Below are positions 1-32,079 of a stretch of 32,079 nucleotides of DNA, in pieces. The position numbers and the translations under genes were made by a program. The number at the start of each line of letters is the position of its first letter. Position 1 is the stretch's first letter. Source of the DNA: a virus. Location of the stretch: positions 1 through 32,079 of the IMG/VR virus record IMGVR_UViG_3300045988_103181. One strand, given 5' to 3'. Below the pieces are notes generated by a model. That model saw only the letters and a program-made list of their open reading frames with translations. It searched no databases and was not told where the DNA came from.

Positions 1-1200
1 GAAACTTATTTCGGTTCTATAACCGGTTGGAGTTTAGAGACATTAAAAGGTAATATCTTAGAGCCTTTAAAAAAGTTTCTAGATGATATGAAATTAGAAA
101 AAGGAAGAGATTATATATTAAGGTGGCAGACTGATGAAAAGTATCTAGAAATATACAACATTAGATACTATTTCTTTGGTTTTAATAATGTACTTGCATT
201 TAATAAGATATTAGGTAAGCCTTTAATATTTGAATGGATAGATGAAAGTGCCAGAATATACTCACAGGATAATTTAAGAGAGCCATTTAATGAATTCCCT
301 GGTAGACAAGTATCTTATGCAGACCATCCTTATTTAAAGACTATACATTCATTCAATGTTGAGGGTGGGGAAAATCATCCATACAAAATTGACTACATAG
401 ATAAGAAGCCTTATGCTAAGCATTATTCTTTTTTCCCTTATGACAACCCTAAGATAAAAACAGAAGAAGCAATGCGAAAGGTATTAGAAATGTTTCCACC
501 TGGAAATCTAAGAGAACAAAAAATATTTAATAAATGGATACTTGCTACTGGCAGAGTATTCAATACTATAAACACTATAGATAGTCTTGATAATTATGCT
601 TTTAGAGAAATAGGGATAGGAATAGACTATGGTTCAGTCCATGCGACAGCATTTGTACCTATTGCTCTTGCTTATGATAAAATAAATAAGAAATGGGTAT
701 TAATAAGATTAGAGTATTACTACCATAATGCTGAAGAAGAACAAGATAACCCTACAACCGAATATTTTAGTAAGCAATTAAGACTATTCTTATTGTATCT
801 AAAAAGTGAATATGGGCAAGTGCCTATTACTACCATGGTATTAGATAGTGCCGCCGCTCACTTCCATAATAGATTAATTGCTGATAATATATCACATACA
901 TTAATCAATAAAAGCATGGATAATGTAGTTGAGGGAGTTCAATATATGCAATCTTTGTTTTATAAAGGATATCTGCTTATATATAAACAAAAAGCAATTA
1001 AGCATATAACTGATAGTGGCGAATTAATTTATAGTGGTAAAGATGATGGATTGCTTGAATTAGAAAGTTATAGATATGACTTAAAAGCAAGCACTAAAAG
1101 TGGTAAAGAAGCCTATGTAAAAGAGTTTGATGACCATATAGATGCTTTAAGGTATATCATAATTGAATTTAAAGAAACCGATAGAGCACCAGTAGTATAA
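1..1200 (+). CDS. terL: terminase large subunit, C-terminal continuation (gene starts at 31848 and wraps across the circular junction; 1-55 duplicates 32025-32079)
   Basis: Frame 1 from base 1 reads without a stop into the 88..1200 ORF. The N-terminal piece at the window end carries the Walker A motif GSTQSGKT. Size and layout fit a PBSX-type large terminase, about 458 aa in total. Confidence 0.85.
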   Translation, partial: ETYFGSITGWSLETLKGNILEPLKKFLDDMKLEKGRDYILRWQTDEKYLEIYNIRYYFFGFNNVLAFNKILGKPLIFEWIDESARIYSQDNLREPFNEFPGRQVSYADHPYLKTIHSFNVEGGENHPYKIDYIDKKPYAKHYSFFPYDNPKIKTEEAMRKVLEMFPPGNLREQKIFNKWILATGRVFNTINTIDSLDNYAFREIGIGIDYGSVHATAFVPIALAYDKINKKWVLIRLEYYYHNAEEEQDNPTTEYFSKQLRLFLLYLKSEYGQVPITTMVLDSAAAHFHNRLIADNISHTLINKSMDNVVEGVQYMQSLFYKGYLLIYKQKAIKHITDSGELIYSGKDDGLLELESYRYDLKASTKSGKEAYVKEFDDHIDALRYIIIEFKETDRAPVV

Positions 1201-1214
1201 AAGGAGTTGAATAT

Positions 1215-1736
1215 ATGGAAATGCAAGAAATTTGGAAAGATATCAAAAATTATGAAGGATTATATCAAGTCAGCAATTATGGGAAAGTAAAAAGTTTACC
1301 AAGAAAAGGAACACAAGCAAAAGAAGAAAGAATATTAAAAGTCAGTTATACTTATAATGGCTATGAAAGAGTTAATTTGTGTAAGAACAATAAAAATAAA
1401 CGATATTTAGTTCATAGATTAGTTGCGGAAACATTTATTCTAAATCCTAATGAATATCCTCAGATAAATCATATTGATGAAAACAAGCAAAATAATAAAG
1501 TTAGTAATTTAGAATGGTGTACTCGTTCTTATAACATTAATTATGGTAATAGAAATAATTGTTTGAATAAAGAAGTGTGGCAATATGATTTAAAAGGGAA
1601 ATTAATAAAAAAATGGAAAAGTACAATGGAAATACAAAGAAATTTAGGATTTAAAAATCAAAATATAAGTTCTGCGTGTAGAGGAACATACCATAAAGCA
1701 TATAATTATATATGGAAATACAAAGGGGTTGATTAA
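1215..1736 (+). CDS. HNH homing endonuclease (NUMOD4 motif plus HNH_3 domain), free-standing
   Basis: N-terminus WKDIKNYEGLYQVSNYGKVKS is a NUMOD4-like motif. The central stretch NGYERVNL...YLVHRLVAETFI...INHID..K.NN..NLEW resembles an I-HmuI-like HNH_3 domain. RBS AAGGAG lies upstream. Confidence 0.8.
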   Translation: MEMQEIWKDIKNYEGLYQVSNYGKVKSLPRKGTQAKEERILKVSYTYNGYERVNLCKNNKNKRYLVHRLVAETFILNPNEYPQINHIDENKQNNKVSNLEWCTRSYNINYGNRNNCLNKEVWQYDLKGKLIKKWKSTMEIQRNLGFKNQNISSACRGTYHKAYNYIWKYKGVD

Positions 1737-8642: not shown

Positions 8643-9124
8643 ATGAATGGAGGAGAAGTCATCTTCAAGTTTAAAGGAGATGATAAAGACCTAGAAAAAA
8701 AGACTAATGGTGTCACTGGTAAATTGAAAGCAAGTACTGTCGCTCTTGGCAACTTAATGTCTAGTGCTATTGAAAAAGTCGGCAGTTCTTTGTTAGGACT
8801 TGGCAAAAATGCCTTGCAAGGTGTTGCTGATTTAGAGCAGAATATCGGAGGTGTAGAGACACTTTTCAAAGATAGTGCTGATACAGTTATAGAGAACTCA
8901 AAAAAAGCCTATACAACAGCGGGAATAGATGCTAATAAGTATATGGAGCAAATAACTTCATTTAGTGCTAGTTTATTACAAAGCCTAGGTGGAGATACTG
9001 CAGAGGCAGCCAAAGTCGGCGATATGGCTATTCAAGATATGGCAGACAACTCAAACAAGTTTGGTACTGCCATTGAGAATATTCAAAATGCTTATCAAGG
9101 GTTCGCTAAGCAGAATTATACGAT
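8643..9124 (+). CDS. tape measure protein, exon 1
   Basis: Ends ...NIQNAYQGFAKQNYT, which is the N-terminal half of the TMP motif AKQNYTMLDNLKLGYGGTKTEMERLL, conserved in my recollection of Firmicutes phage TMPs. The exon ends in a U (T at 9124). Confidence 0.75.
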
Positions 9125-9438
9125 AAAATTAATGTCTGCTTAATTAGTGATAATTAAGTAAGTGTATGTGAACCTTATCAAGGGTGTGAGATTAAAATAT
9201 AAGTAGGAAATGACTTGTTGAGATAATCTTGCTAACTGGGGAAGCCTAAGTCCAAAAGATATGGTTATCCAGTGCCAAGCCTAGAAATAGGAAGGTCAAA
9301 CGACTATGAGTTCGTTACTCAGTACAATATCTATTGATACGATATTGGAAGTGCATACTATCTCAAATGAGATAAAGATATAGTCTAATCCCACTTTTAA
9401 ATAAGTGTTAAAGTGCTAGGAAACTAGGGGTGTAAATG
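9125..9438 (+). ncRNA. group I self-splicing intron (ORF-less, 314 nt) interrupting the tape measure gene
   Basis: R-like element TCAAACGACTATGA at 9296-9309 and S element AAGATATAGTCT at 9375-9386, with P7 pairing GACTA/TAGTC. The upstream exon ends in U and the intron ends in G. Joining the exons restores ATG (M) and the conserved TMP motif. Confidence 0.8.
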
Positions 9439-10651
9439 GTTAGATAATTTGAAACTTGGTTATGGGGGAACAAAAACAGAAATGGAAAGATTACTTGCTG
9501 ATGCTGAAAAGATATCAGGAGTACATTATGACATTTCTAATTTAAATGATGTATTTAATGCTATTCATGTAATTCAAGAAGAATTAGATGTAACAGGAAC
9601 GACAGCAAAAGAAGCCTCTACTACTATAAGTGGTTCAATAAATAGTGCTAAGTCAGCATTTAGTAATTTCCTAAGTGGTGCAGGTGGAATTGAAGAAGTA
9701 ATAAGTACCTTTACTACTGCTGGAACAAATATATCAAATGCGATAGTAAAAATGGCACCTCAAATAATAACTGGTTTAACTACTTTATTAAATAATCTAG
9801 TACCTTTAATTAGCCCTTTACTTCAAGCGATATTACCAGCATTGATACAAGGAACTTCAACATTAATAATGGGGCTAGTTCAAGCATTGCCTGGTATTAT
9901 TCAAATATTAATGGGTATGTTGCCTACTATAATTCAAGAATTGGCAAATATGCTACCAGTTATACTTACTTCATTAATTCAAGGGTTAGTTATGATTATT
10001 CAAGAATTGGCTAATCAATTACCTATATTGATACCAGTTATAATAGATGCTATTCTTAGCACTATACCTATATTAATTGATAATTTACCTTTATTTATAG
10101 ATGCTGGTTTTAAATTACTAGGTGGTTTAATTTCTGGTATATTAAATGCTCTTCCAATATTGCTAGCCAGAGCAGGAGAAATCATTGTTGATTTAGTTGA
10201 ATATTTCAAAGGAATGCCTAAAATGATGTGGGATTGTGGTAAAAATTTAATACAAGGTCTTTGGAATGGTATTAAGTCTGCTAAAGATTGGGTACTTGAC
10301 AAGATAGCAGGTATAGGTAATTCAATAATGAAAAAAATCAAAGGAATATTTGGAGTACATAGCCCATCAACAGAGTTTGCATGGGTTGGTAAGATGAATA
10401 TGCTAGGTTTAGAAAAAGGTATGGAAGACATGAAAGGGCAAGTTAATTCAACAGTCGGAGGAATGTTTGATGATATGTTTAGTTTATCACCTAGCCTATA
10501 TGGAAGTTCAAGTACCAATTTAAGCCCACAAGTTAATGTAGTAGTAAATAATAATATGGAGCAAGACCCATTAGGACAAATGGTTAATAATATTAAGACA
10601 TTTAGCGGTGGCTCTAAAAATGACTATAATTATGGAATGGGAGGAGCATAA
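9439..10651 (+). CDS. tape measure protein, exon 2
   Basis: Begins (M)LDNLKLGYGGTKTEMERLLADAEKISGVHYDISNLNDVFNAIHVIQ, then a hydrophobic repeat-rich C-terminus typical of TMPs. There is no ATG or RBS of its own, because the track start is a TTG. Confidence 0.75.
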
Positions 10652-15196: not shown

Positions 15197-16105
15197 ATGG
15201 AAATAATAAAAAAATTAGTACCAGAAAGCAAATGGGGAATAAAATGTCCTTATGAAATGACACCAACTAGAATAGTAGTACATAATACTGCAAACGATGC
15301 AAGTGCTAGAAATGAAATAGCATATATGACAAATAATGACTATGAAACATCTTTCCACTATGCTGTTGATGATAAAGAAATAGTACAAGGAATAGAAGAA
15401 AATAGAAATGGCTGGCATGCATCTGATAGTAATGGCAAAGGAAATAGAGAGGGAATAGCAATAGAAATATGTTATTCAAAATCTGGTGGAGAAAGATTTA
15501 TCAAAGCCGAACAGAATGCAGTTGACCTAATTGTTGATATATTAAAAAGATATGGTTGGGGAATTGACAGAGTAACAAAACACCAAGATTATGGAAATCA
15601 TAAATATTGTCCTCATAGAACATTAGATATGGGCTGGGATAGGTTCTTAAATATGATAAAGGCTAAATTAGAAGATAAACCTACTTCAAACGAAGTTAAT
15701 GTTTATTACAGAGTTAAAACTCAAAAACATGGCTGGCTTTCAGAAGTTAAAAACCTAGAGGATTATGCTGGTTGGGAGAATAGCCCTATAACTGGACTTG
15801 CTATAAGAGTAGATAAAGGTTCTATTAAATATAGAGTTCATATTAAAGGAAAAGGCTGGTTGCCATTTGTTACGGGTTATGATATTAATGATTTTAACAA
15901 TGGTTTTGCTGGTGATGGAGTAAATGCTATTGACTGTGTAGAATGTTATTATTACACACCTAATAATATTAGACCATTCAAAAAAGCAAAATATAAAATA
16001 AATAATTATCCTTATCAATATGATAATGAAACATCAAATAATCAAGATGGATATGCTGGGGTATATGGAGTTAGTGCTACTAAGTTTCAAATAACAATTG
16101 AATAA
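15197..16105 (+). CDS. endolysin: N-acetylmuramoyl-L-alanine amidase (Amidase_2/PGRP) with C-terminal cell-wall-binding region
   Basis: Amidase_2 motifs are present (VVHNTAN, FHYAV.D, GIAIEICY, YCPHR, i.e. His/Cys zinc ligands). The gene follows the holins. Confidence 0.8.
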   Translation: MEIIKKLVPESKWGIKCPYEMTPTRIVVHNTANDASARNEIAYMTNNDYETSFHYAVDDKEIVQGIEENRNGWHASDSNGKGNREGIAIEICYSKSGGERFIKAEQNAVDLIVDILKRYGWGIDRVTKHQDYGNHKYCPHRTLDMGWDRFLNMIKAKLEDKPTSNEVNVYYRVKTQKHGWLSEVKNLEDYAGWENSPITGLAIRVDKGSIKYRVHIKGKGWLPFVTGYDINDFNNGFAGDGVNAIDCVECYYYTPNNIRPFKKAKYKINNYPYQYDNETSNNQDGYAGVYGVSATKFQITIE

Positions 16106-20308: not shown

Positions 20309-20467
20309 ATGAAACTATTATTTAGATTTATGAAGAAAGCAGACAAGGATAGAAATAGAATAACTATACCACAATTTCTAATTAATAAATATGGTAGTGA
20401 ATTCTATTTAGAATTCTATGATGATGAAACTATTAAATTAGTACCAGTTAAAAAGGAGGAAAAATAA
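20309..20467 (+). CDS. AbrB/MazE/SpoVT-like swapped-hairpin DNA-binding protein, 52 aa (not in track)
   Basis: Translates MKLLFRFMKKADKDRNRITIPQFLINKYGSEFYLEFYDDETIKLVPVKKEEK. RITIPQFL is the signature loop of the AbrB fold. RBS AAAGGTAGGTG. Confidence 0.45.
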   Translation: MKLLFRFMKKADKDRNRITIPQFLINKYGSEFYLEFYDDETIKLVPVKKEEK

Positions 20468-21264
20468 TGGCAAAATTCAAAGTAAATAAAACAAAAGATT
20501 ACACTATAATGAGTAATTATCATTTAAAAGAAAAGAATATGAGTTTAAAAGCAAAAGGGCTATTAAGCGTTATGCTATCGTTACCAGATAATTGGGATTA
20601 TTCAATATCAGGATTAGTAGCGATTAGTTTAGAAAATGAAACATCAATAAAAAGTGCATTATCAGAATTAAAAAAACTTGGATATTTAGAAGTAATTAAA
20701 TTAATGCCTAATGAAAGTGAAACAGGAAGAATTGATTATATTTATAATGTTTATGAAAAACCAAAACAAGAGAGTGGAAAACAAGAGGTAGAAAAACAAG
20801 AGGTAGAAAATCTACCCCTAGAAATTCTAGAGGTAGAAAATCAAGGACAATTAAATACTAATAATAAATATAATAATATAAATATTATTAATACTAAAAA
20901 ACAAAATATAGATTATATAAATAATAATAGTAGTAGTATAGAGAAACGAGATACGATTTATGACTTCTTAGAACAAAACTTTGGAAGAACATTAAATAGT
21001 ATTGAAATTGAAATGATAAAAGAATGGAATGATAATGAATTAACTAGATATGCAATTAAACAAGCAGTATTAAATGGTAAATATAATGTTAAATACATAA
21101 ATACGATATTAGTTAATTATAGAAATAATTCCATAACAACAGTGCAACAAGCACAAGAGGAAGAAAAAGTATTTAAAAGCAAAAAAGAAATAAAAAAATC
21201 AAGAACATCTGCAATGGATGAAACAATTAAGGAGATATATAATGGAACAATTAAACTTCAGTAA
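20467..21264 (+). CDS. replication initiation / replisome organiser protein (DnaD-like C-terminal domain)
   Basis: C-terminal stretch LNSIEIEMIKEWNDNELTRYAIKQAVLNGKYNVKYINTILVNYRNN matches the DnaD/phage replisome-organiser pattern. The N-terminal winged-helix-like region contains internal tandem DNA repeats. Confidence 0.65.
   Translation: MAKFKVNKTKDYTIMSNYHLKEKNMSLKAKGLLSVMLSLPDNWDYSISGLVAISLENETSIKSALSELKKLGYLEVIKLMPNESETGRIDYIYNVYEKPKQESGKQEVEKQEVENLPLEILEVENQGQLNTNNKYNNINIINTKKQNIDYINNNSSSIEKRDTIYDFLEQNFGRTLNSIEIEMIKEWNDNELTRYAIKQAVLNGKYNVKYINTILVNYRNNSITTVQQAQEEEKVFKSKKEIKKSRTSAMDETIKEIYNGTIKLQ
20776..20842 (+). repeat. iteron-like direct repeats (AGAGGTAGAAAA x3, two of them as a tandem 15-mer ACAAGAGGTAGAAAA) inside the replication gene; candidate origin
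   Basis: Repeats read directly from the sequence. They encode QEVEKQEVE...LEVE. Confidence 0.5.
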
Positions 21265-21721: not shown

Positions 21722-22303
21722 ATGAAAGAAATAAATATTAAATTAATGAATATTCAACAAGAATTAAAAGCACCAAAAGGACAATATAATTCTTTTGGTA
21801 AATATGCTTACAGAAGTTGTGAGGACATATTAGAGGGAGTAAAACCTTTATTAAAAAAAGAAAAAGTAGTGTTAACAATAAGTGATGAACTTCAATATAT
21901 AGGAAATAGATACTATATAAAAGCAACAGCAACACTTATTGATACTGAAAGTGAGGCAACTATAAGTAATAGTGCTTATGCAAGAGAAGAAGAAACAAAA
22001 AAAGGAATGGATGGAAGTCAAATAACTGGAGCAAGTAGTAGTTATGCTAGAAAATATGCTTTAAATGGTTTATTTGGAATAGATGATAATAAAGATAGTG
22101 ATACTACTAATATTCAAAGTAAAGAAGAAAAAGAAGACAAAAAGGCAAGCCCTAAGCAAATAGAACTTATACAAAAATATTATCAAGGCGAAAATTTAAC
22201 TAAATTACTAGAAATAAATAACCTTGAAAAGTTAGAAGATATGTCTATTAATAAAGCAAGTGAAATATTAAATAAATTATTTGCAAAAAAGGAGGACAAG
22301 TAA
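21722..22303 (+). CDS. erf: ERF-family single-strand annealing protein
   Basis: NSFGKYAYRSCEDILEGVKPLL...YYIKATATLIDTESEA...AREEETKKGMDGSQITGASSSYARKYALNGLFGIDD closely resembles the P22 Erf core, as I recall it. Confidence 0.8.
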   Translation: MKEINIKLMNIQQELKAPKGQYNSFGKYAYRSCEDILEGVKPLLKKEKVVLTISDELQYIGNRYYIKATATLIDTESEATISNSAYAREEETKKGMDGSQITGASSSYARKYALNGLFGIDDNKDSDTTNIQSKEEKEDKKASPKQIELIQKYYQGENLTKLLEINNLEKLEDMSINKASEILNKLFAKKEDK

Positions 22304-23772: not shown

Positions 23773-23965
23773 ATTTAAAAAAGAAAAATTTGATAAAATA
23801 AAATTAAATCAAGCAAAAATAGCAGAAGAAGTTGGAATAACTAGGCAGTACATGAATAGTATATATAATCAAGCAACATTATGCAAAAAAACAACAGCAT
23901 ATGCCATAACAAAAAGCATAGATAATAATGCTGAAATAAAAGATTTTTTTGAAGAGGCAAAATAA
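23765..23965 (+). CDS. XRE-type helix-turn-helix transcriptional regulator
   Basis: LNQAKIAEEVGITRQYMNSIYN is a classic HTH motif. Confidence 0.5.
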   Translation: MYRFKKEKFDKIKLNQAKIAEEVGITRQYMNSIYNQATLCKKTTAYAITKSIDNNAEIKDFFEEAK

Positions 23966-24474
23966 TGAGTATAAGAAGTCAATGGTGTGAGTTTGATAAA
24001 GAAACAAGAAAATACATAAAGAAAAGAGATAATAATAGATGTATCTTTTGTGGAAATAATGGGGCTTTGCAAATAGCACATATATTCTTATCAAGGGCAA
24101 AAGGTGGCAAAGGTTGCAAAGAGAATGGTGTTATGTTATGTATTAAATGTCATCAAGCATTAGATAATGGCAAAGATACTTCATTAAGAGACCAAATAAG
24201 TCGATTTTGTAGGTCACATTTAATCGAAAAAGAAAACATAATAGATTTATCTAGTTTGATGAAAACACTTAAATATGATAAAAAAAATAGTCTTAAAGAA
24301 AGAATTATAATACCAGAAGAAAAAAAAGAAATAAAAGATAGATGTAAAAATTGCAGATTATTAGAAAAAAGGCAAGTAAAAGGTAATTCAATACCTACAT
24401 ATTATTGTAGATATAGAAAAATAAGAATAACAAAAAATACAGAGGCTTGCAAAGATTTTAGGAGGATAAAATGA
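23965..24474 (+). CDS. HNH endonuclease domain protein with C-terminal Cys-rich region
   Basis: RCIFCG...LQIAHI...G...ENGVMLCIKCH matches the HNH motif (CxxC...H...N...CxxCH). A further CKNC...C cluster follows. Confidence 0.6.
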   Translation: MSIRSQWCEFDKETRKYIKKRDNNRCIFCGNNGALQIAHIFLSRAKGGKGCKENGVMLCIKCHQALDNGKDTSLRDQISRFCRSHLIEKENIIDLSSLMKTLKYDKKNSLKERIIIPEEKKEIKDRCKNCRLLEKRQVKGNSIPTYYCRYRKIRITKNTEACKDFRRIK

Positions 24475-29133: not shown

Positions 29134-29817
29134 ATGGAAATAGTATATAAAAAGGTAAATGATTTAATACCATACATAAACAATTCAAGAACTCATAGCG
29201 AAGAACAAATAAATCAAATAGTGGCAAGTATAAATGAGTTTGGCTTTACAGACCCACCATATAATATTGCTTATCAAGGTGTTAATGATAAAAGAACCAT
29301 TAAAAATGACAAAATGGAAGATGATGAATTTATAGATTTTCTTCAACAATCACTTATGGTATGTGATACTACTTATGTATGTTGCAGTTGGCAGTATGAA
29401 CATTTATTTAAAAAGGCTATGACTAATTTAGGAATGCCACCTAAAGCAATGATTGTATGGAATAAAGTTAATCCTGCTCAACATTTAGATAAATATTTTA
29501 AGCAACATGAAATAATATTTTATTATGGAAAGTTTGGTGGAGAAAAAACTTTAAGGGGAGATATATGGGAATGTAAAAGACAAAAAAATACAATACACCC
29601 CACTATGAAACCTCTTGAATTAATAGGAATGGCTTTAGAAGATAATCCAAATAAAAAGATAGTGTATGATGGATTTGGAGGTAGTGGTTCGACATTAATT
29701 GCTTGTGAACAATTAAATAGAAATTGTTATATGATGGAACTTGACCCTAAATATATCGATGTAATAATAAAACGATGGGAAGAATTTACTGGTAAAAAGG
29801 CAATTAAGTTAAATTAA
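29134..29817 (+). CDS. DNA methyltransferase, N6_N4_Mtase family (beta class: motif IV DPPY upstream of motif I FGGSGST), with ParB-like N-terminal motif
   Basis: DPPYN near residue 40 and FGGSGS near residue 185. The N-terminal 40 aa (VNDLIPYINNSRTHSEEQINQIVASINEFGF) resemble a ParB N-terminal box. Confidence 0.7.
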   Translation: MEIVYKKVNDLIPYINNSRTHSEEQINQIVASINEFGFTDPPYNIAYQGVNDKRTIKNDKMEDDEFIDFLQQSLMVCDTTYVCCSWQYEHLFKKAMTNLGMPPKAMIVWNKVNPAQHLDKYFKQHEIIFYYGKFGGEKTLRGDIWECKRQKNTIHPTMKPLELIGMALEDNPNKKIVYDGFGGSGSTLIACEQLNRNCYMMELDPKYIDVIIKRWEEFTGKKAIKLN

Positions 29818-31903: not shown

Positions 31904-32079
31904 TATAATTAGCCCTAATCTAACTGAAATATATGTATTAGGAAGCACGCAGAGTGGCAAGACCTTTGATATATGTTTAGGGTGTATCTTATATGCACAA
32001 GCCCTGTATAATTATAATCCAAATGAAACTTATTTCGGTTCTATAACCGGTTGGAGTTTAGAGACATTAAAAGGTAATA
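31848..32079 (+). CDS. terL: terminase large subunit, N-terminal part (continues at base 1 across the circular junction)
   Basis: Translates METSLNLTLSKKQSQLLNDIISPNLTEIYVLGSTQSGKTFDICLGCILYAQALYNYNPNETYFGS..., with Walker A GSTQSGKT. A GGGAG RBS lies 7 nt upstream, and the frame is continuous with 1..1200. Confidence 0.85.
   Translation, partial: METSLNLTLSKKQSQLLNDIISPNLTEIYVLGSTQSGKTFDICLGCILYAQALYNYNPNETYFGSITGWSLETLKGN
32025..32079. repeat. 55-bp terminal direct repeat identical to bases 1-55 (assembly overlap of a circular molecule)
   Basis: Exact 55/55 identity read directly. Unique genome length is 32,024 bp. Confidence 0.9.

What the first reader, a model, noticed from the sequence alone, without database searches (positions are those of the whole stretch)
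9125..9438. ORF-less group I self-splicing intron splitting the tape measure protein gene
The + strand ORF 8643..9143 ends ...AYQGFAKQNYT-IKLMSA-stop. About 300 bp later, the next ORF (TTG start at 9449, no ATG or RBS) opens with ...LDNLKLGYGGTKTEMERLLADAEKISG. In Firmicutes phage tape measure proteins these two stretches form one contiguous conserved motif (QNYTMLDNLKLGYGG). Removing 9125..9438 joins ...ACG AT + G TTA GAT..., which recreates an ATG codon (Met) and the uninterrupted motif.

The excised 314 nt has group I hallmarks read directly from the sequence:
- R-like element TCAAACGACTATGA at 9296-9309.
- S element AAGATATAGTCT at 9375-9386.
- Perfectly complementary P7 strands, GACTA at 9302-9306 and TAGTC at 9381-9385.
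- CTGG...CCAG candidates for the P4 pairing.
- The last exon base before the intron is U (T at 9124), as needed for the P1 G.U pair.
- The last intron base is G (9438).

The intron has no internal ORF and no homing endonuclease. Group I introns in phage structural genes are uncommon, and I am not aware of a well-documented intron in a tape measure gene.
Basis: partly seen in the sequence, partly recalled or inferred. Interest (0 to 1): 0.85.

Follow-up and report, generated by a model that had tools for sequence, protein, structure and literature searches.

The report
Group I intron in tape-measure gene
A 314-base self-splicing RNA (a group I intron) that lacks its own mobility gene interrupts the tail tape-measure gene of a human-gut phage. 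The intron is real and its ends are exact, but it belongs to a widespread and already documented kind of element.

Summary
Window 9125..9438 is a group I intron of subgroup IA, splitting a 564-aa tail tape measure protein (TMP) gene (exons 8643..9124 and 9439..10651).

Evidence:
- Rfam RF00028 matches 9164..9408 at 48.6 bits (E 1e-9 for the whole window), 1.4 bits below its gathering score.
- Nearly identical phage contigs lack exactly these 314 bases and encode an uninterrupted 564-aa TMP.
- Sister contigs carry the same ribozyme (3 differences in 315 nt) with a 160-aa HNH homing endonuclease in the P8 loop. Others keep only fragments of that gene.
- A 13-sequence alignment gives 96.9% of cells paired and 27 pairs with compensatory changes.

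The window copy is most likely a derivative that lost its endonuclease. Splicing itself is inferred, not shown.

TMP introns are published for Bacillus cereus-group prophages, Lactobacillus phage JCL1032 and Vibrio phage ICP1. The same intron at the same site sits unannotated in Lactococcus phage 38502 and Streptococcus phage Str-PAP-1.

Two side findings:
- This phage lineage has three intron sites within 100 nt of the gene.
- The 5' strand of P3 is separated from J3/4 by two hairpins, a feature shared by a large class of phage introns.

Verdict: new member of a known kind, with modest interest.

The parts
8643..9124 (+). Exon 1 of the tape measure protein gene (codons 1-160 plus the first 2 nt of codon 161)
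   Evidence: ORF list. It is collinear with nt 1-482 of intron-less alleles. phrog_6900 'tail length tape measure protein' matches residues 10-205 of the spliced product in one stretch, E 2.7e-69.
9125..9438 (+). Group I intron, 314 nt, subgroup IA, with no ORF
   Evidence: RF00028 at 48.6 bits, E 1.3e-9. Exactly this stretch is missing from intron-less alleles. Covariation supports the fold. MFE -76.7 kcal/mol, z = -3.1 against shuffles. No ORF.
9439..10651 (+). Exon 2 of the tape measure protein gene, including the stop codon. It has no start codon of its own; the TTG at 9449 is an artefact of ORF listing.
9121..9138 (+). P1. Exon C9121, G9122, A9123, U9124 pair with the internal guide G9138, C9136, U9135, G9134, with U9137 bulged. 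The 5' splice site is U9124 paired as a wobble with G9134.
   Evidence: The three core pairs are invariant in 13 of 13 sequences, so they are consistent but carry no covariation. All 34 distinct introns found at this site have the exon sequence ACGAU. Intron-less close relatives have ACC, ACA or ACT.
9129..9133 (+). Candidate P10 guide (UUAAU) pairing with the first exon-2 bases 9439-9443 (GUUAG)
   Evidence: 90.8% of cells paired, but no compensatory change. This is weak support and an inference.
9141..9143 (+). In-frame UAA that ends translation reading from exon 1 into the intron. It lies inside the 5' strand of P2.
   Evidence: The homologous introns of phages 38502 and Str-PAP-1 also have an early in-frame stop.
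9139..9158 (+). P2 hairpin, CUUAAUUA-GUGA-UAAUUAAG, with a GNRA loop
   Evidence: Four of 8 pairs show changes on both sides, for example CUGCGUAA/UUAUGCAG in phage 38502.
9164..9169 (+). P3 5' strand (GUAUGU). It pairs with 9353-9358 (GCAUAC).
   Evidence: 100% paired in 13 of 13, with one U:A to C:G compensatory change. RNAfold's MFE structure predicts the same pairing independently. Across 54 distinct related phage introns, 48 are 6/6 paired, with 23 distinct fully paired combinations among the 29 unambiguous cases.
9171..9232 (+). Two hairpins inserted between P3 and J3/4. PA spans 9171-9185. PB pairs 9186-9194 with 9224-9232 and holds an inner hairpin 9201-9216 with the conserved loop AGGAAAUG.
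   Evidence: Compensatory changes in PA, PB and the inner hairpin. The motifs are shared by many IMG/VR phage introns.
9233..9296 (+). J3/4 (UAA 9233-9235) and the P4-P6 domain. P4 pairs 9235-9240 with 9268-9273. P5 spans 9245-9264. P6 spans 9274-9296 and has a GAAA loop.
   Evidence: P4 shows a U:A to A:U change in 4 of 13 sequences. P5 shows one compensatory pair. P6 is invariant. The Rfam alignment agrees.
9302..9306 (+). P7 5' strand (GACUA, within the R element). It pairs with 9381-9385 (UAGUC, within the S element) and forms a pseudoknot with P3.
   Evidence: Invariant in 13 of 13. It matches the RF00028 consensus ...GACUA and AAGAUAUAGUC.
9307..9346 (+). P7.1 (9307-9321) and P7.2 (9326-9346), the extra hairpins that mark subgroup IA
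   Evidence: Two of 5 pairs in P7.1 and 3 of 6 pairs in P7.2 have changes on both sides. All cells are paired.
9353..9358 (+). P3 3' strand (GCAUAC), immediately followed by P8
9359..9374 (+). P8 hairpin UAUCUC-AAAU-GAGAUA. In sister contigs the HNH endonuclease gene (528 extra nt) lies between 9368 and 9369.
   Evidence: Three of 6 pairs are compensatory. L005, L017 and L019 carry a 160-aa NUMOD4+HNH_3 ORF here. Nested deletion alleles exist in L025 and L010.
9389..9430 (+). P9 domain: P9.0 (9389-9391 with 9428-9430), P9 (9392-9407) and P9.1 (9416-9427, GAAA loop)
   Evidence: All 4 pairs of P9.1 are compensatory and P9 has one compensatory pair. This 3' part is about 90% identical to introns of Staphylococcus Twort-like phages that are annotated with intron-encoded endonucleases.
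9438..9438 (+). Terminal G (omega-G), the last intron base and the 3' splice site
   Evidence: G is the last base in all 34 distinct genuine introns at this site. The boundary is fixed by intron-less alleles.

Best explanation
Window 9125..9438 is a group I self-splicing intron of subgroup IA, of the phage type. It sits inside the most conserved N-terminal motif of the tail tape measure protein gene of a 32-kb human-gut siphovirus-like phage.

Inferred mechanism, following the standard group I pathway:
1. The late transcript folds so that exon bases C9121-U9124 pair with the internal guide 9134-9138 to form P1, with the U9124-G9134 wobble at the splice site.
2. An exogenous guanosine bound in P7 (9302-9306 with 9381-9385) attacks after U9124.
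3. The 3' exon is aligned by P10 (9129-9133 with 9439-9443).
4. The freed 3'-OH of U9124 attacks after the terminal G9438.
5. The exons join as ...ACG AU|G UUA..., recreating a Met codon and a 564-aa tape measure protein.

Ribosomes that read unspliced RNA stop at UAA 9141-9143.

The copy has no homing endonuclease gene. Sister genomes carry the same ribozyme with a 160-aa HNH (NUMOD4+HNH_3) gene in the P8 loop, and others keep only fragments of it. The window copy is therefore most likely a late stage of the invade, fix, decay cycle of homing introns. It has lost the endonuclease by deletion while selection on the essential tape measure gene keeps the ribozyme working. On its own it cannot move. 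It could still spread by recombination, or be mobilised in trans by the endonuclease of a co-infecting relative.

Shown: intron identity, boundaries, fold support, and the allele series. Inferred: actual splicing, the direction of endonuclease loss, and any mobilisation in trans.
For: 1. RF00028 matches 9164..9408 end to end over the model (positions 1-253) at 48.6 bits, E 1.9e-11 locally and 1.3e-9 for the window. It is the only RNA-family hit in the window.

2. Forty-two predicted proteins of 564 aa are 95-99% identical to the conceptual spliced product over its full length. Their DNA (L003, L004) reads ...TATACCAT|GTTAGATAA, an exact deletion of 9125..9438. Five full-length contigs of the lineage have no insertion in the gene.

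3. On 13 distinct introns from this site, 96.9% of cells are paired, against 33-42% when partners are slid. Twenty-seven pairs have changes on both sides, and 0 of 500 shuffles reach the observed values. RNAfold independently recovers P2, P3, PA, PB, P4-P6, P7.1, P7.2, P8, P9 and P9.1, with z = -3.1.

4. L005, L017 and L019 have the same ribozyme (3 mismatches in 315 nt) plus a 160-aa NUMOD4+HNH_3 ORF in P8 whose last codons are the P8 3' strand and J8/7. That endonuclease is 51% identical to the one in the homologous intron of Lactococcus phage 38502.

5. Nested deletions: L025 equals the L005 P8 region minus nt 33-487, L010 carries a different deletion, and the window lacks nt 11-537.

6. 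The same intron sits at the same site (ACGAT|...G|GTTrGATAA) in phage 38502 and Str-PAP-1. In all, 34 distinct versions were found in session loci, all with the ACGAU exon and a terminal G.

7. The host gene is a tape measure gene. phrog_6900 (E 2.7e-69) and nine other TMP families match, and the match runs continuously across residue 160/161. tblastn finds continuous homologues with 70-81% identity across the junction in 364 phage records.

8. The ORF-less form recurs in independent assemblies: 9 contigs of the lineage, including a MAG and human-gut metagenomes.
Against: - The Rfam score is 1.4 bits below the curated gathering threshold, so a standard annotation run reports nothing.
- P1 is short (3 invariant pairs plus one beyond a bulge) and shows no covariation. 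P10 is supported only by conservation.
- The P3 that Rfam models, using the strand adjacent to J3/4, forms only 3 pairs here. The fold works only with the upstream strand 9164-9169.
- No RNA data exist for this phage, so splicing is not demonstrated.
- The 4-nt P8 loop of the window copy carries no endonuclease remnant. For this allele alone, 'lost' cannot be told from 'never had'.
Confidence: 0.9

Rival explanations
1. The ORF-less form is ancestral. The ribozyme entered the tape measure gene without an endonuclease, and the HNH gene later invaded its P8 loop in sister genomes. This is the order of events proposed by Bonocora and Shub, cited as reference 55 in PMC10448857.
For: The window's P8 loop (AAAU) holds no endonuclease fragment. 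Ribozymes with and without the ORF differ by only about 1%, so either direction would be recent. ORF-less copies are the most common state at this site in the lineage: 9 of the 14 contigs in which the site is occupied.
Against: Two independent intermediate alleles keep both ends of the endonuclease cassette with internal deletions (L025/L037 and L010/L043), which shows that deletion is going on in this population. The endonuclease ORF ends inside conserved ribozyme sequence, and it is 51% identical to the endonuclease in the distant 38502 intron. That points to an old intron-endonuclease association that predates the split of these lineages.
Confidence: 0.15
2. The element is a decayed intron that no longer splices. 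This genome would be a defective phage, or one that makes its tape measure from two polypeptides.
For: The Rfam score is below the gathering threshold. The canonical P3 pairs poorly. There is no endonuclease and no expression data.
Against: The ribozyme differs at 3 of 315 positions from endonuclease-bearing copies. Every helix is intact, and diverged copies (L022, L026, L016) keep the pairs through compensatory changes, which indicates purifying selection. The same ORF-less allele occurs in at least 9 otherwise complete contigs of 31-34 kb. Exon 2 has no start codon or ribosome-binding site of its own. The low score is explained by a P3 arrangement shared across the whole class.
Confidence: 0.04
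3. It is not an intron. Two genuine adjacent genes are separated by a structured intergenic spacer, or the stretch is an assembly chimera.
For: Gene callers on related contigs predict separate 166-aa and 389-404-aa proteins.
Against: Intron-less alleles fuse the two frames exactly. Tape-measure profiles and hundreds of homologues run continuously across the junction. The covariance-model hit and the covariation support a ribozyme. The same structure appears in independent assemblies from JGI, ENA, Logan and a GenBank MAG.
Confidence: 0.01

Closest known systems
Endonuclease-bearing sister intron in the same phage lineage (L005 Logan SRR25477632; IMG/VR 3300045988_105304 and _081357)
   Same: Same insertion site and the same ribozyme (3 differences in 315 nt), in the same roughly 32-kb phage.
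   Different: It is 842-843 nt long because a 160-aa NUMOD4+HNH_3 homing endonuclease gene occupies the P8 loop. The window copy lacks those 528 nt.
Unannotated introns in the split 'tapemeasure protein' genes of Lactococcus phage 38502 (KX160204) and Streptococcus phage Str-PAP-1 (KP208803)
   Same: Identical insertion site (ACGAT|...G|GTTrGATAA). Homologous ribozyme: 75% identity over 96% of the 5' 241 nt for 38502. Same helices, kept through compensatory changes.
   Different: Both carry an HNH gene in P8 (864 and 859 nt in all). They lack the inner AGGAAAUG hairpin of PB. They are in cultured lactic-acid-bacteria phages. GenBank annotates two TMP CDSs plus an 'HNH endonuclease', not an intron. 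Str-PAP-1 has a second intron about 60 nt upstream (RF00028 at 82 bits).
TMP-IVS1, IVS2, IVS3a and IVS3b group I introns of Bacillus cereus-group prophages (Tourasse and Kolsto 2008, PMC2504315)
   Same: Group I introns of subgroups IA1 and IA2 in tape measure genes. There are several sites per gene, most copies lack a complete endonuclease gene, and the endonuclease decays by internal deletion that preserves the fold.
   Different: The tape measure proteins are different (over 1200 aa). The N-terminal motif query found no Bacillus phage hit, so the sites are different. Sequence relatedness to the window intron was not tested directly.
Vibrio phage ICP1 tape measure intron with an HNH-3 endonuclease (Barth et al. 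2023, PMC10448857)
   Same: A tape measure gene interrupted by an intron with an HNH_3-type endonuclease. Splicing was shown by RNA-seq and RT-PCR, and the endonuclease content varies between isolates while the context is unchanged.
   Different: The host is Gram-negative, the tape measure protein is unrelated, and the endonuclease is present. No sequence comparison was made here.
Annotated 'ncRNA' in the tape measure gene of Streptococcus phage MissG1 (OL774877)
   Same: An ORF-less group I intron (RF00028 at 69.4 bits) in the same conserved N-terminal motif of a homologous tape measure protein.
   Different: It is inserted 22 nt further downstream (after ...AAACTCGGT, 'site C'). It is a different ribozyme apart from the P6-P7 core.
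Classical phage subgroup IA2 introns (T4 td; Staphylococcus phage Twort orf142). This comparison rests on my own knowledge.
   Same: P7.1/P7.2 hairpins, a GNRA-capped P2, the J3/4-P4 motif UAAC-GGGGAA, R and S elements, and an early in-frame stop. The last 66 nt are about 90% identical to introns of Twort-like staphylococcal phages.
   Different: As I recall the td structure, P3 abuts J3/4 directly. Here two hairpins (PA and PB) lie between them.

Membership tests
Group I intron (Rfam RF00028) | Covariance-model score at or above the curated gathering score (50 bits) | tested here: not met
   48.6 bits, 1.4 bits short. E is 1.3e-9 for the whole window, and the match covers the full model, positions 1-253. 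The shortfall is explained by the P3 arrangement, which the model does not encode.
Group I intron | Conserved core: P3-P8 and P4-P6 domains with the P3/P7 pseudoknot, and R and S consensus elements | tested here: met
   All helices are present. 96.9% of cells are paired on 13 sequences, 27 pairs are compensatory, and 0 of 500 shuffles reach the observed values. P7 GACUA/UAGUC is invariant. The MFE fold agrees.
Group I intron | The 5' splice site follows a U that forms a G-U wobble with the internal guide in P1 | tested here: met
   The U9124-G9134 wobble is present in 13 of 13 sequences. The exon sequence ACGAU occurs in all 34 distinct introns at this site. The pairing is invariant, so it is consistent rather than proven by covariation.
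Group I intron | The last intron nucleotide is G (omega-G) | tested here: met
   G9438. G is the terminal base in all 34 distinct genuine introns at this site. The boundary is fixed by intron-less alleles.
Group I intron | Precise excision restores an uninterrupted host gene | tested here: met
   Intron-less alleles encode 564-aa proteins 95-99% identical to the spliced product. The tape-measure profile match runs continuously across the junction.
Group I intron | Guanosine-dependent self-splicing | not testable with these tools
   This needs in vitro transcription and splicing, or RNA from infected cells.
Subgroup IA | Extra hairpins P7.1 and P7.2 between P7 and the 3' strand of P3 | tested here: met
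   P7.1 spans 9307-9321 and P7.2 spans 9326-9346. All cells are paired, with 5 compensatory pairs. Assignment to IA1, IA2 or IA3 was not tested formally. 'IA2-like' rests on similarity to staphylococcal phage introns and on my own knowledge.
Mobile (homing) group I intron | An intron-encoded homing endonuclease gene | tested here: not met
   There is no ORF in the 314 nt. The HNH gene is present in sister copies. The window copy is a non-autonomous derivative.
Tail length tape measure protein (host gene) | Profile match and position in the tail gene module | tested here: met
   phrog_6900 at E 2.7e-69, phrog_58 at E 2.4e-66 and eight further TMP families. The gene lies after head and tail genes and before 496-aa and 636-aa distal tail genes. 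Pfam gave no hit.

The most novel reading that the evidence does not exclude
The window intron belongs to a large class of phage group I introns with an unusual core layout. The 5' strand of P3 is not adjacent to J3/4. It is separated from J3/4 by a conserved two-hairpin module: PA ('GAAC...GGGU') and PB, which often carries a conserved AGGAAAUG loop. Rfam's RF00028 consensus does not encode this layout, and I could not find it named in the searchable literature. If it is truly undescribed, it would define a structural subclass of subgroup IA introns with a new peripheral domain at the P3/J3/4 joint. It would also explain why such introns are under-called by standard annotation.
Probability: 0.2. 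Interest if true: 0.45.

Novelty: new member of a known kind. Interest (0 to 1): 0.3.

Why it matters
For this genome, the finding corrects the annotation. The 166-aa and 400-aa ORFs are one 564-aa tape measure gene, and default Rfam thresholds miss the intron.

More generally, this gut-phage lineage offers a compact natural series of one homing intron. At a single site there are empty, endonuclease-bearing, partly deleted and fully ORF-less alleles. Two neighbouring sites in the same 100 nt are also occupied in some contigs. That makes it a usable system for studying the intron homing cycle and co-conversion of flanking exon sequence in uncultivated phages.

It does not change what is known about group I introns or tape measure genes. 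Introns in tape measure genes have been published since 2008, and splicing was verified for phage ICP1.

Tried and rejected
1. The Rfam gathering scan of the window returned nothing. The E-value scan was needed to see the hit.

2. Rfam on endonuclease-bearing relatives (L001, L005, L006) did not detect the introns, because the ORF splits the ribozyme. It also missed the site A and site C insertions of L044.

3. The canonical P3, using the strand 5' of J3/4 (9225-9232), forms only 3 of 8 pairs in window-type introns. I rejected it in favour of 9164-9169.

4. I proposed that the ligated junction ...ACGATGTTAGA would be a DNA-free signature of splicing, because ACG was perfectly linked to intron presence in my sample. 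This was rejected: at least 120 IMG/VR contigs have intron-less tape measure genes with ACG at that codon. None of them is a close relative (76% identity or less).

5. I considered a second intron in the large terminase gene, because an HNH gene (1215..1736) follows ORF 88..1200. The ORF ends at a normal stop followed by a ribosome-binding site, and no group I signal is present. I treat it as a free-standing endonuclease gene.

6. Pfam gave no hit for the tape measure protein. PHROGs did.

7. Literature searches for a name for the P3/PA/PB layout ('P3.1', 'between P3 and P4') and for a paper on phage 38502 found nothing useful.

8. The host could not be named beyond 'Bacilli bacterium' MAG and human gut.
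Full report
**Observation**

The + strand ORF 8643..9143 ends ...AYQGFAKQNYT IKLMSA stop. A second frame is open from 9428 and reads ...LDNLKLGYGGTKTEMERLLADAEKISG. Deleting 9125..9438 (314 nt, 34% G+C against 28% for the window) joins ACG AT + G TTA. This gives a 564-aa product carrying ...QNYTMLDNLKLGYGG. No ORF lies inside the 314 nt.

**Is it a group I intron?**

At gathering thresholds Rfam reports nothing in the window. With E-value reporting, RF00028 (Intron_gpI) matches 9164..9408 over the whole model at 48.6 bits. The gathering score is 50. E is 1.9e-11 for the local scan and 1.3e-9 for all 32 kb, and it is the only hit.

The 3' 66 nt are about 90% identical to introns of Twort-like staphylococcal phages whose records annotate intron-encoded endonucleases. 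Nearly the whole 5' part aligns to Lactococcus phage 38502 inside its 'tapemeasure protein' region.

**Natural intron-less alleles**

A search with the conceptual spliced protein returned 42 predicted proteins of exactly 564 aa, 95-99% identical over the full length, on contigs of 24-33 kb. The DNA of two such contigs reads ...CAGAATTATACCAT|GTTAGATAATTT.... This is the window sequence with precisely 9125..9438 absent, and moving either boundary by one base does not reproduce it. PHROG tape-measure profiles (phrog_6900, E 2.7e-69) and tblastn hits in 364 phage records also run uninterrupted across residue 160/161.

**Sister alleles and loss of the endonuclease**

Contig L005 and the IMG/VR contigs L017 and L019 come from the same phage. 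They carry the same ribozyme (3 mismatches in 315 nt) plus 528 extra nt in the P8 loop. These encode a 160-aa NUMOD4+HNH_3 endonuclease whose last codons are the P8 3' strand and J8/7.

- L025/L037 keep nt 1-32 and 488-544 of that P8 region.
- L010/L043 carry a different internal deletion.
- The window keeps nt 1-10 and 538-544, leaving a tidy UAUCUC-AAAU-GAGAUA hairpin.

Such a nested series is what decay of a homing endonuclease gene looks like. The reverse order, an ORF-less ancestor later invaded by the endonuclease gene, cannot be excluded for this allele alone.

**Structure**

I aligned 13 distinct introns from this site, with P8 loops trimmed, and counted pairs for a manual model.

- 96.9% of cells are paired, against 33-42% when partners are slid.
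- 27 pairs have changes on both sides.
- 0 of 500 shuffles reach the observed values.

The helices are:

| Helix | Coordinates | Note |
|---|---|---|
| P1 | exon 9121-9124 with 9134-9138 | U9124-G9134 wobble at the splice site |
| P2 | 9139-9158 | GUGA loop |
| P3 | 9164-9169 with 9353-9358 | |
| PA | 9171-9185 | |
| PB | 9186-9194 with 9224-9232 | inner hairpin 9201-9216 |
| P4 | 9235-9240 with 9268-9273 | |
| P5 | 9245-9264 | |
| P6 | 9274-9296 | |
| P7 | 9302-9306 with 9381-9385 | |
| P7.1 | 9307-9321 | |
| P7.2 | 9326-9346 | |
| P8 | 9359-9374 | |
| P9.0, P9, P9.1 | 9389-9430 | |
| omega-G | 9438 | |

P7.1 and P7.2 place the intron in subgroup IA. P1 and P10 are conserved but show no covariation, so they are consistent rather than proven. 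RNAfold alone recovers nearly all of these helices (-76.7 kcal/mol, z = -3.1).

**An unexpected detail in P3**

The strand next to J3/4, which RF00028 treats as the 5' strand of P3, pairs with the 3' strand at only 3 positions. Instead, 9164-9169 pairs perfectly with it. This strand lies upstream of two hairpins, PA and PB.

A scan of IMG/VR with the J3/4-P4 motif gave 117 stretches. In 54 distinct introns the equivalent six-base strands are 6/6 complementary in 48 cases. Among the 29 unambiguous cases 28 are fully paired, with 23 different fully paired combinations, against a permuted mean of 3.5 of 6. The layout is therefore a class-wide feature and not a defect of this copy. It probably accounts for the sub-threshold Rfam score. 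I could not find a name for it in the searchable literature.

**Population context**

Contigs of this 32-33-kb phage show three insertion sites within 100 nt of the tape measure gene:

| Site | Position in CDS | Insertion lengths (nt) |
|---|---|---|
| A | after nt 405 | 363, 420, 864 |
| B (the window's site) | after nt 482 | 313-315, 387-388, 842-843 |
| C | after nt 504 | about 233-238, 796 |

All combinations occur:

| Sites occupied | Contigs |
|---|---|
| none | 5 |
| B only | 6, including the window and a 'Bacilli bacterium' MAG |
| C only | 2 |
| A + C | 2 |
| B + C | 5 |
| A + B + C | 3 |

When neighbouring sites are occupied, mini-exons of 78 and 22 nt are left between them. The intron nature of A and C in this lineage rests on precise insertion and group I-like sequence read by eye. 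Rfam did not call them. A site C intron in Streptococcus phage MissG1 scores 69.4 bits and is annotated as 'ncRNA' in GenBank.

Across all loci fetched, 34 distinct site B introns were found, 16 of them without a complete endonuclease gene. All have the exon sequence ACGAU and a terminal G.

In the lineage, every intron-bearing allele has ACG at the Thr codon before the splice site, and every empty allele has ACC, ACA or ACT. This fits the G9122-C9136 pair of P1, or co-conversion during homing. ACG also occurs in at least 120 intron-less tape measure genes of distant phages, so it is not a signature of the intron.

**Comparison with what is known**

- Tourasse and Kolsto (PMC2504315) described IA1 and IA2 introns at three sites in tape measure genes of B. 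cereus-group prophages, mostly without endonuclease genes. Their table also lists an intron in the tape measure gene of L. delbrueckii phage JCL1032.
- Barth et al. (PMC10448857) call TMP a 'frequently interrupted gene'. They showed by RNA-seq and RT-PCR that the ICP1 tape measure intron, which carries an HNH-3 endonuclease, is spliced.
- Introns in other phage structural genes are also on record, in capsid, tail, tail tube and terminase genes.

The window element is thus a new member of a known kind. It is an ORF-less copy of an intron family that already sits, unannotated, in two GenBank phages.

**Verdict**

The finding is real, its boundaries are exact, and its interpretation as a group I intron is well supported computationally (confidence about 0.9). 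Splicing is untested. The claim of rarity is wrong. Interest is modest (0.3). The allele series and the P3/PA/PB layout are the parts most worth a specialist's look.

Noticed in passing
window 1-55 and 32025-32079: An exact 55-nt direct repeat at the two ends of the window. This is the signature of a circular assembly, so the window is a complete 32,024-bp phage genome. ORF 88..1200, which matches large-terminase profiles only over residues 135-361, may therefore begin before the arbitrary start point.
   Followed up: partly
window 1215-1736 (+): A 173-aa NUMOD4+HNH_3+NUMOD1 endonuclease gene sits directly after the terminase ORF, with its own ribosome-binding site. It is 36% identical over about 100 aa to the intron-encoded HNH of the sister contigs. 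No group I signal flanks it, so it looks like a free-standing homing endonuclease gene. Whether it could mobilise the ORF-less intron in trans is unknown.
   Followed up: partly
L044 2640-3002 and 3412-3644; also L033, L043, L006, L040, L034, L035: Relatives of the window phage carry further insertions in the same tape measure gene. Site A lies after GAT|AAT (CDS nt 405) and site C after ...AAACTCGGT (nt 504), each with or without an HNH gene. Up to three insertions occur within 100 nt, leaving mini-exons of 78 and 22 nt. Rfam did not call A or C in L044. The site C element there looks like a different ribozyme type from the one in phage MissG1.
   Followed up: partly
L002 (Str-PAP-1) 1812-2098 and ORF 2219-2839: Streptococcus phage Str-PAP-1 has a second group I intron that its record does not annotate (RF00028 at 82.1 bits). 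It lies about 60 nt upstream of the site B intron, after ...NSNKMG, and is followed by an 'endonuclease' ORF that looks GIY-YIG-like by eye. This makes a fourth insertion site in the same conserved tape-measure motif.
   Followed up: partly
L016 (IMG/VR 3300031867_000879): A close relative of the window ribozyme (838 nt, with an HNH gene) sits in a different exon context...GGTAATTTTACGAT|...ATG|GATGGATAATTTAGGTGTAGCA. It shares only the ACGAT of the 5' exon. This may be an example of the same intron occupying a diverged target.
   Followed up: no
window 9201-9216, and many IMG/VR loci (L062-L158): The loop sequence AGGAAAUG of the inner PB hairpin is conserved across dozens of otherwise diverged phage introns, while its stem covaries. 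This suggests a tertiary contact, for example with one of the GNRA loops of P2, P6 or P9.1.
   Followed up: no
window 23965-24474, 29134-29817, 21722-22303, 20467-21264, 15197-16105: Other genes noted while annotating the window: a weak HNH-like ORF, an N6/N4 DNA methylase, an ERF recombinase, a DnaD-like replication protein and an amidase endolysin. All ORFs of 120 aa or more are on the + strand apart from two antisense ORFs that overlap + strand genes, and there are no tRNA genes.
   Followed up: no
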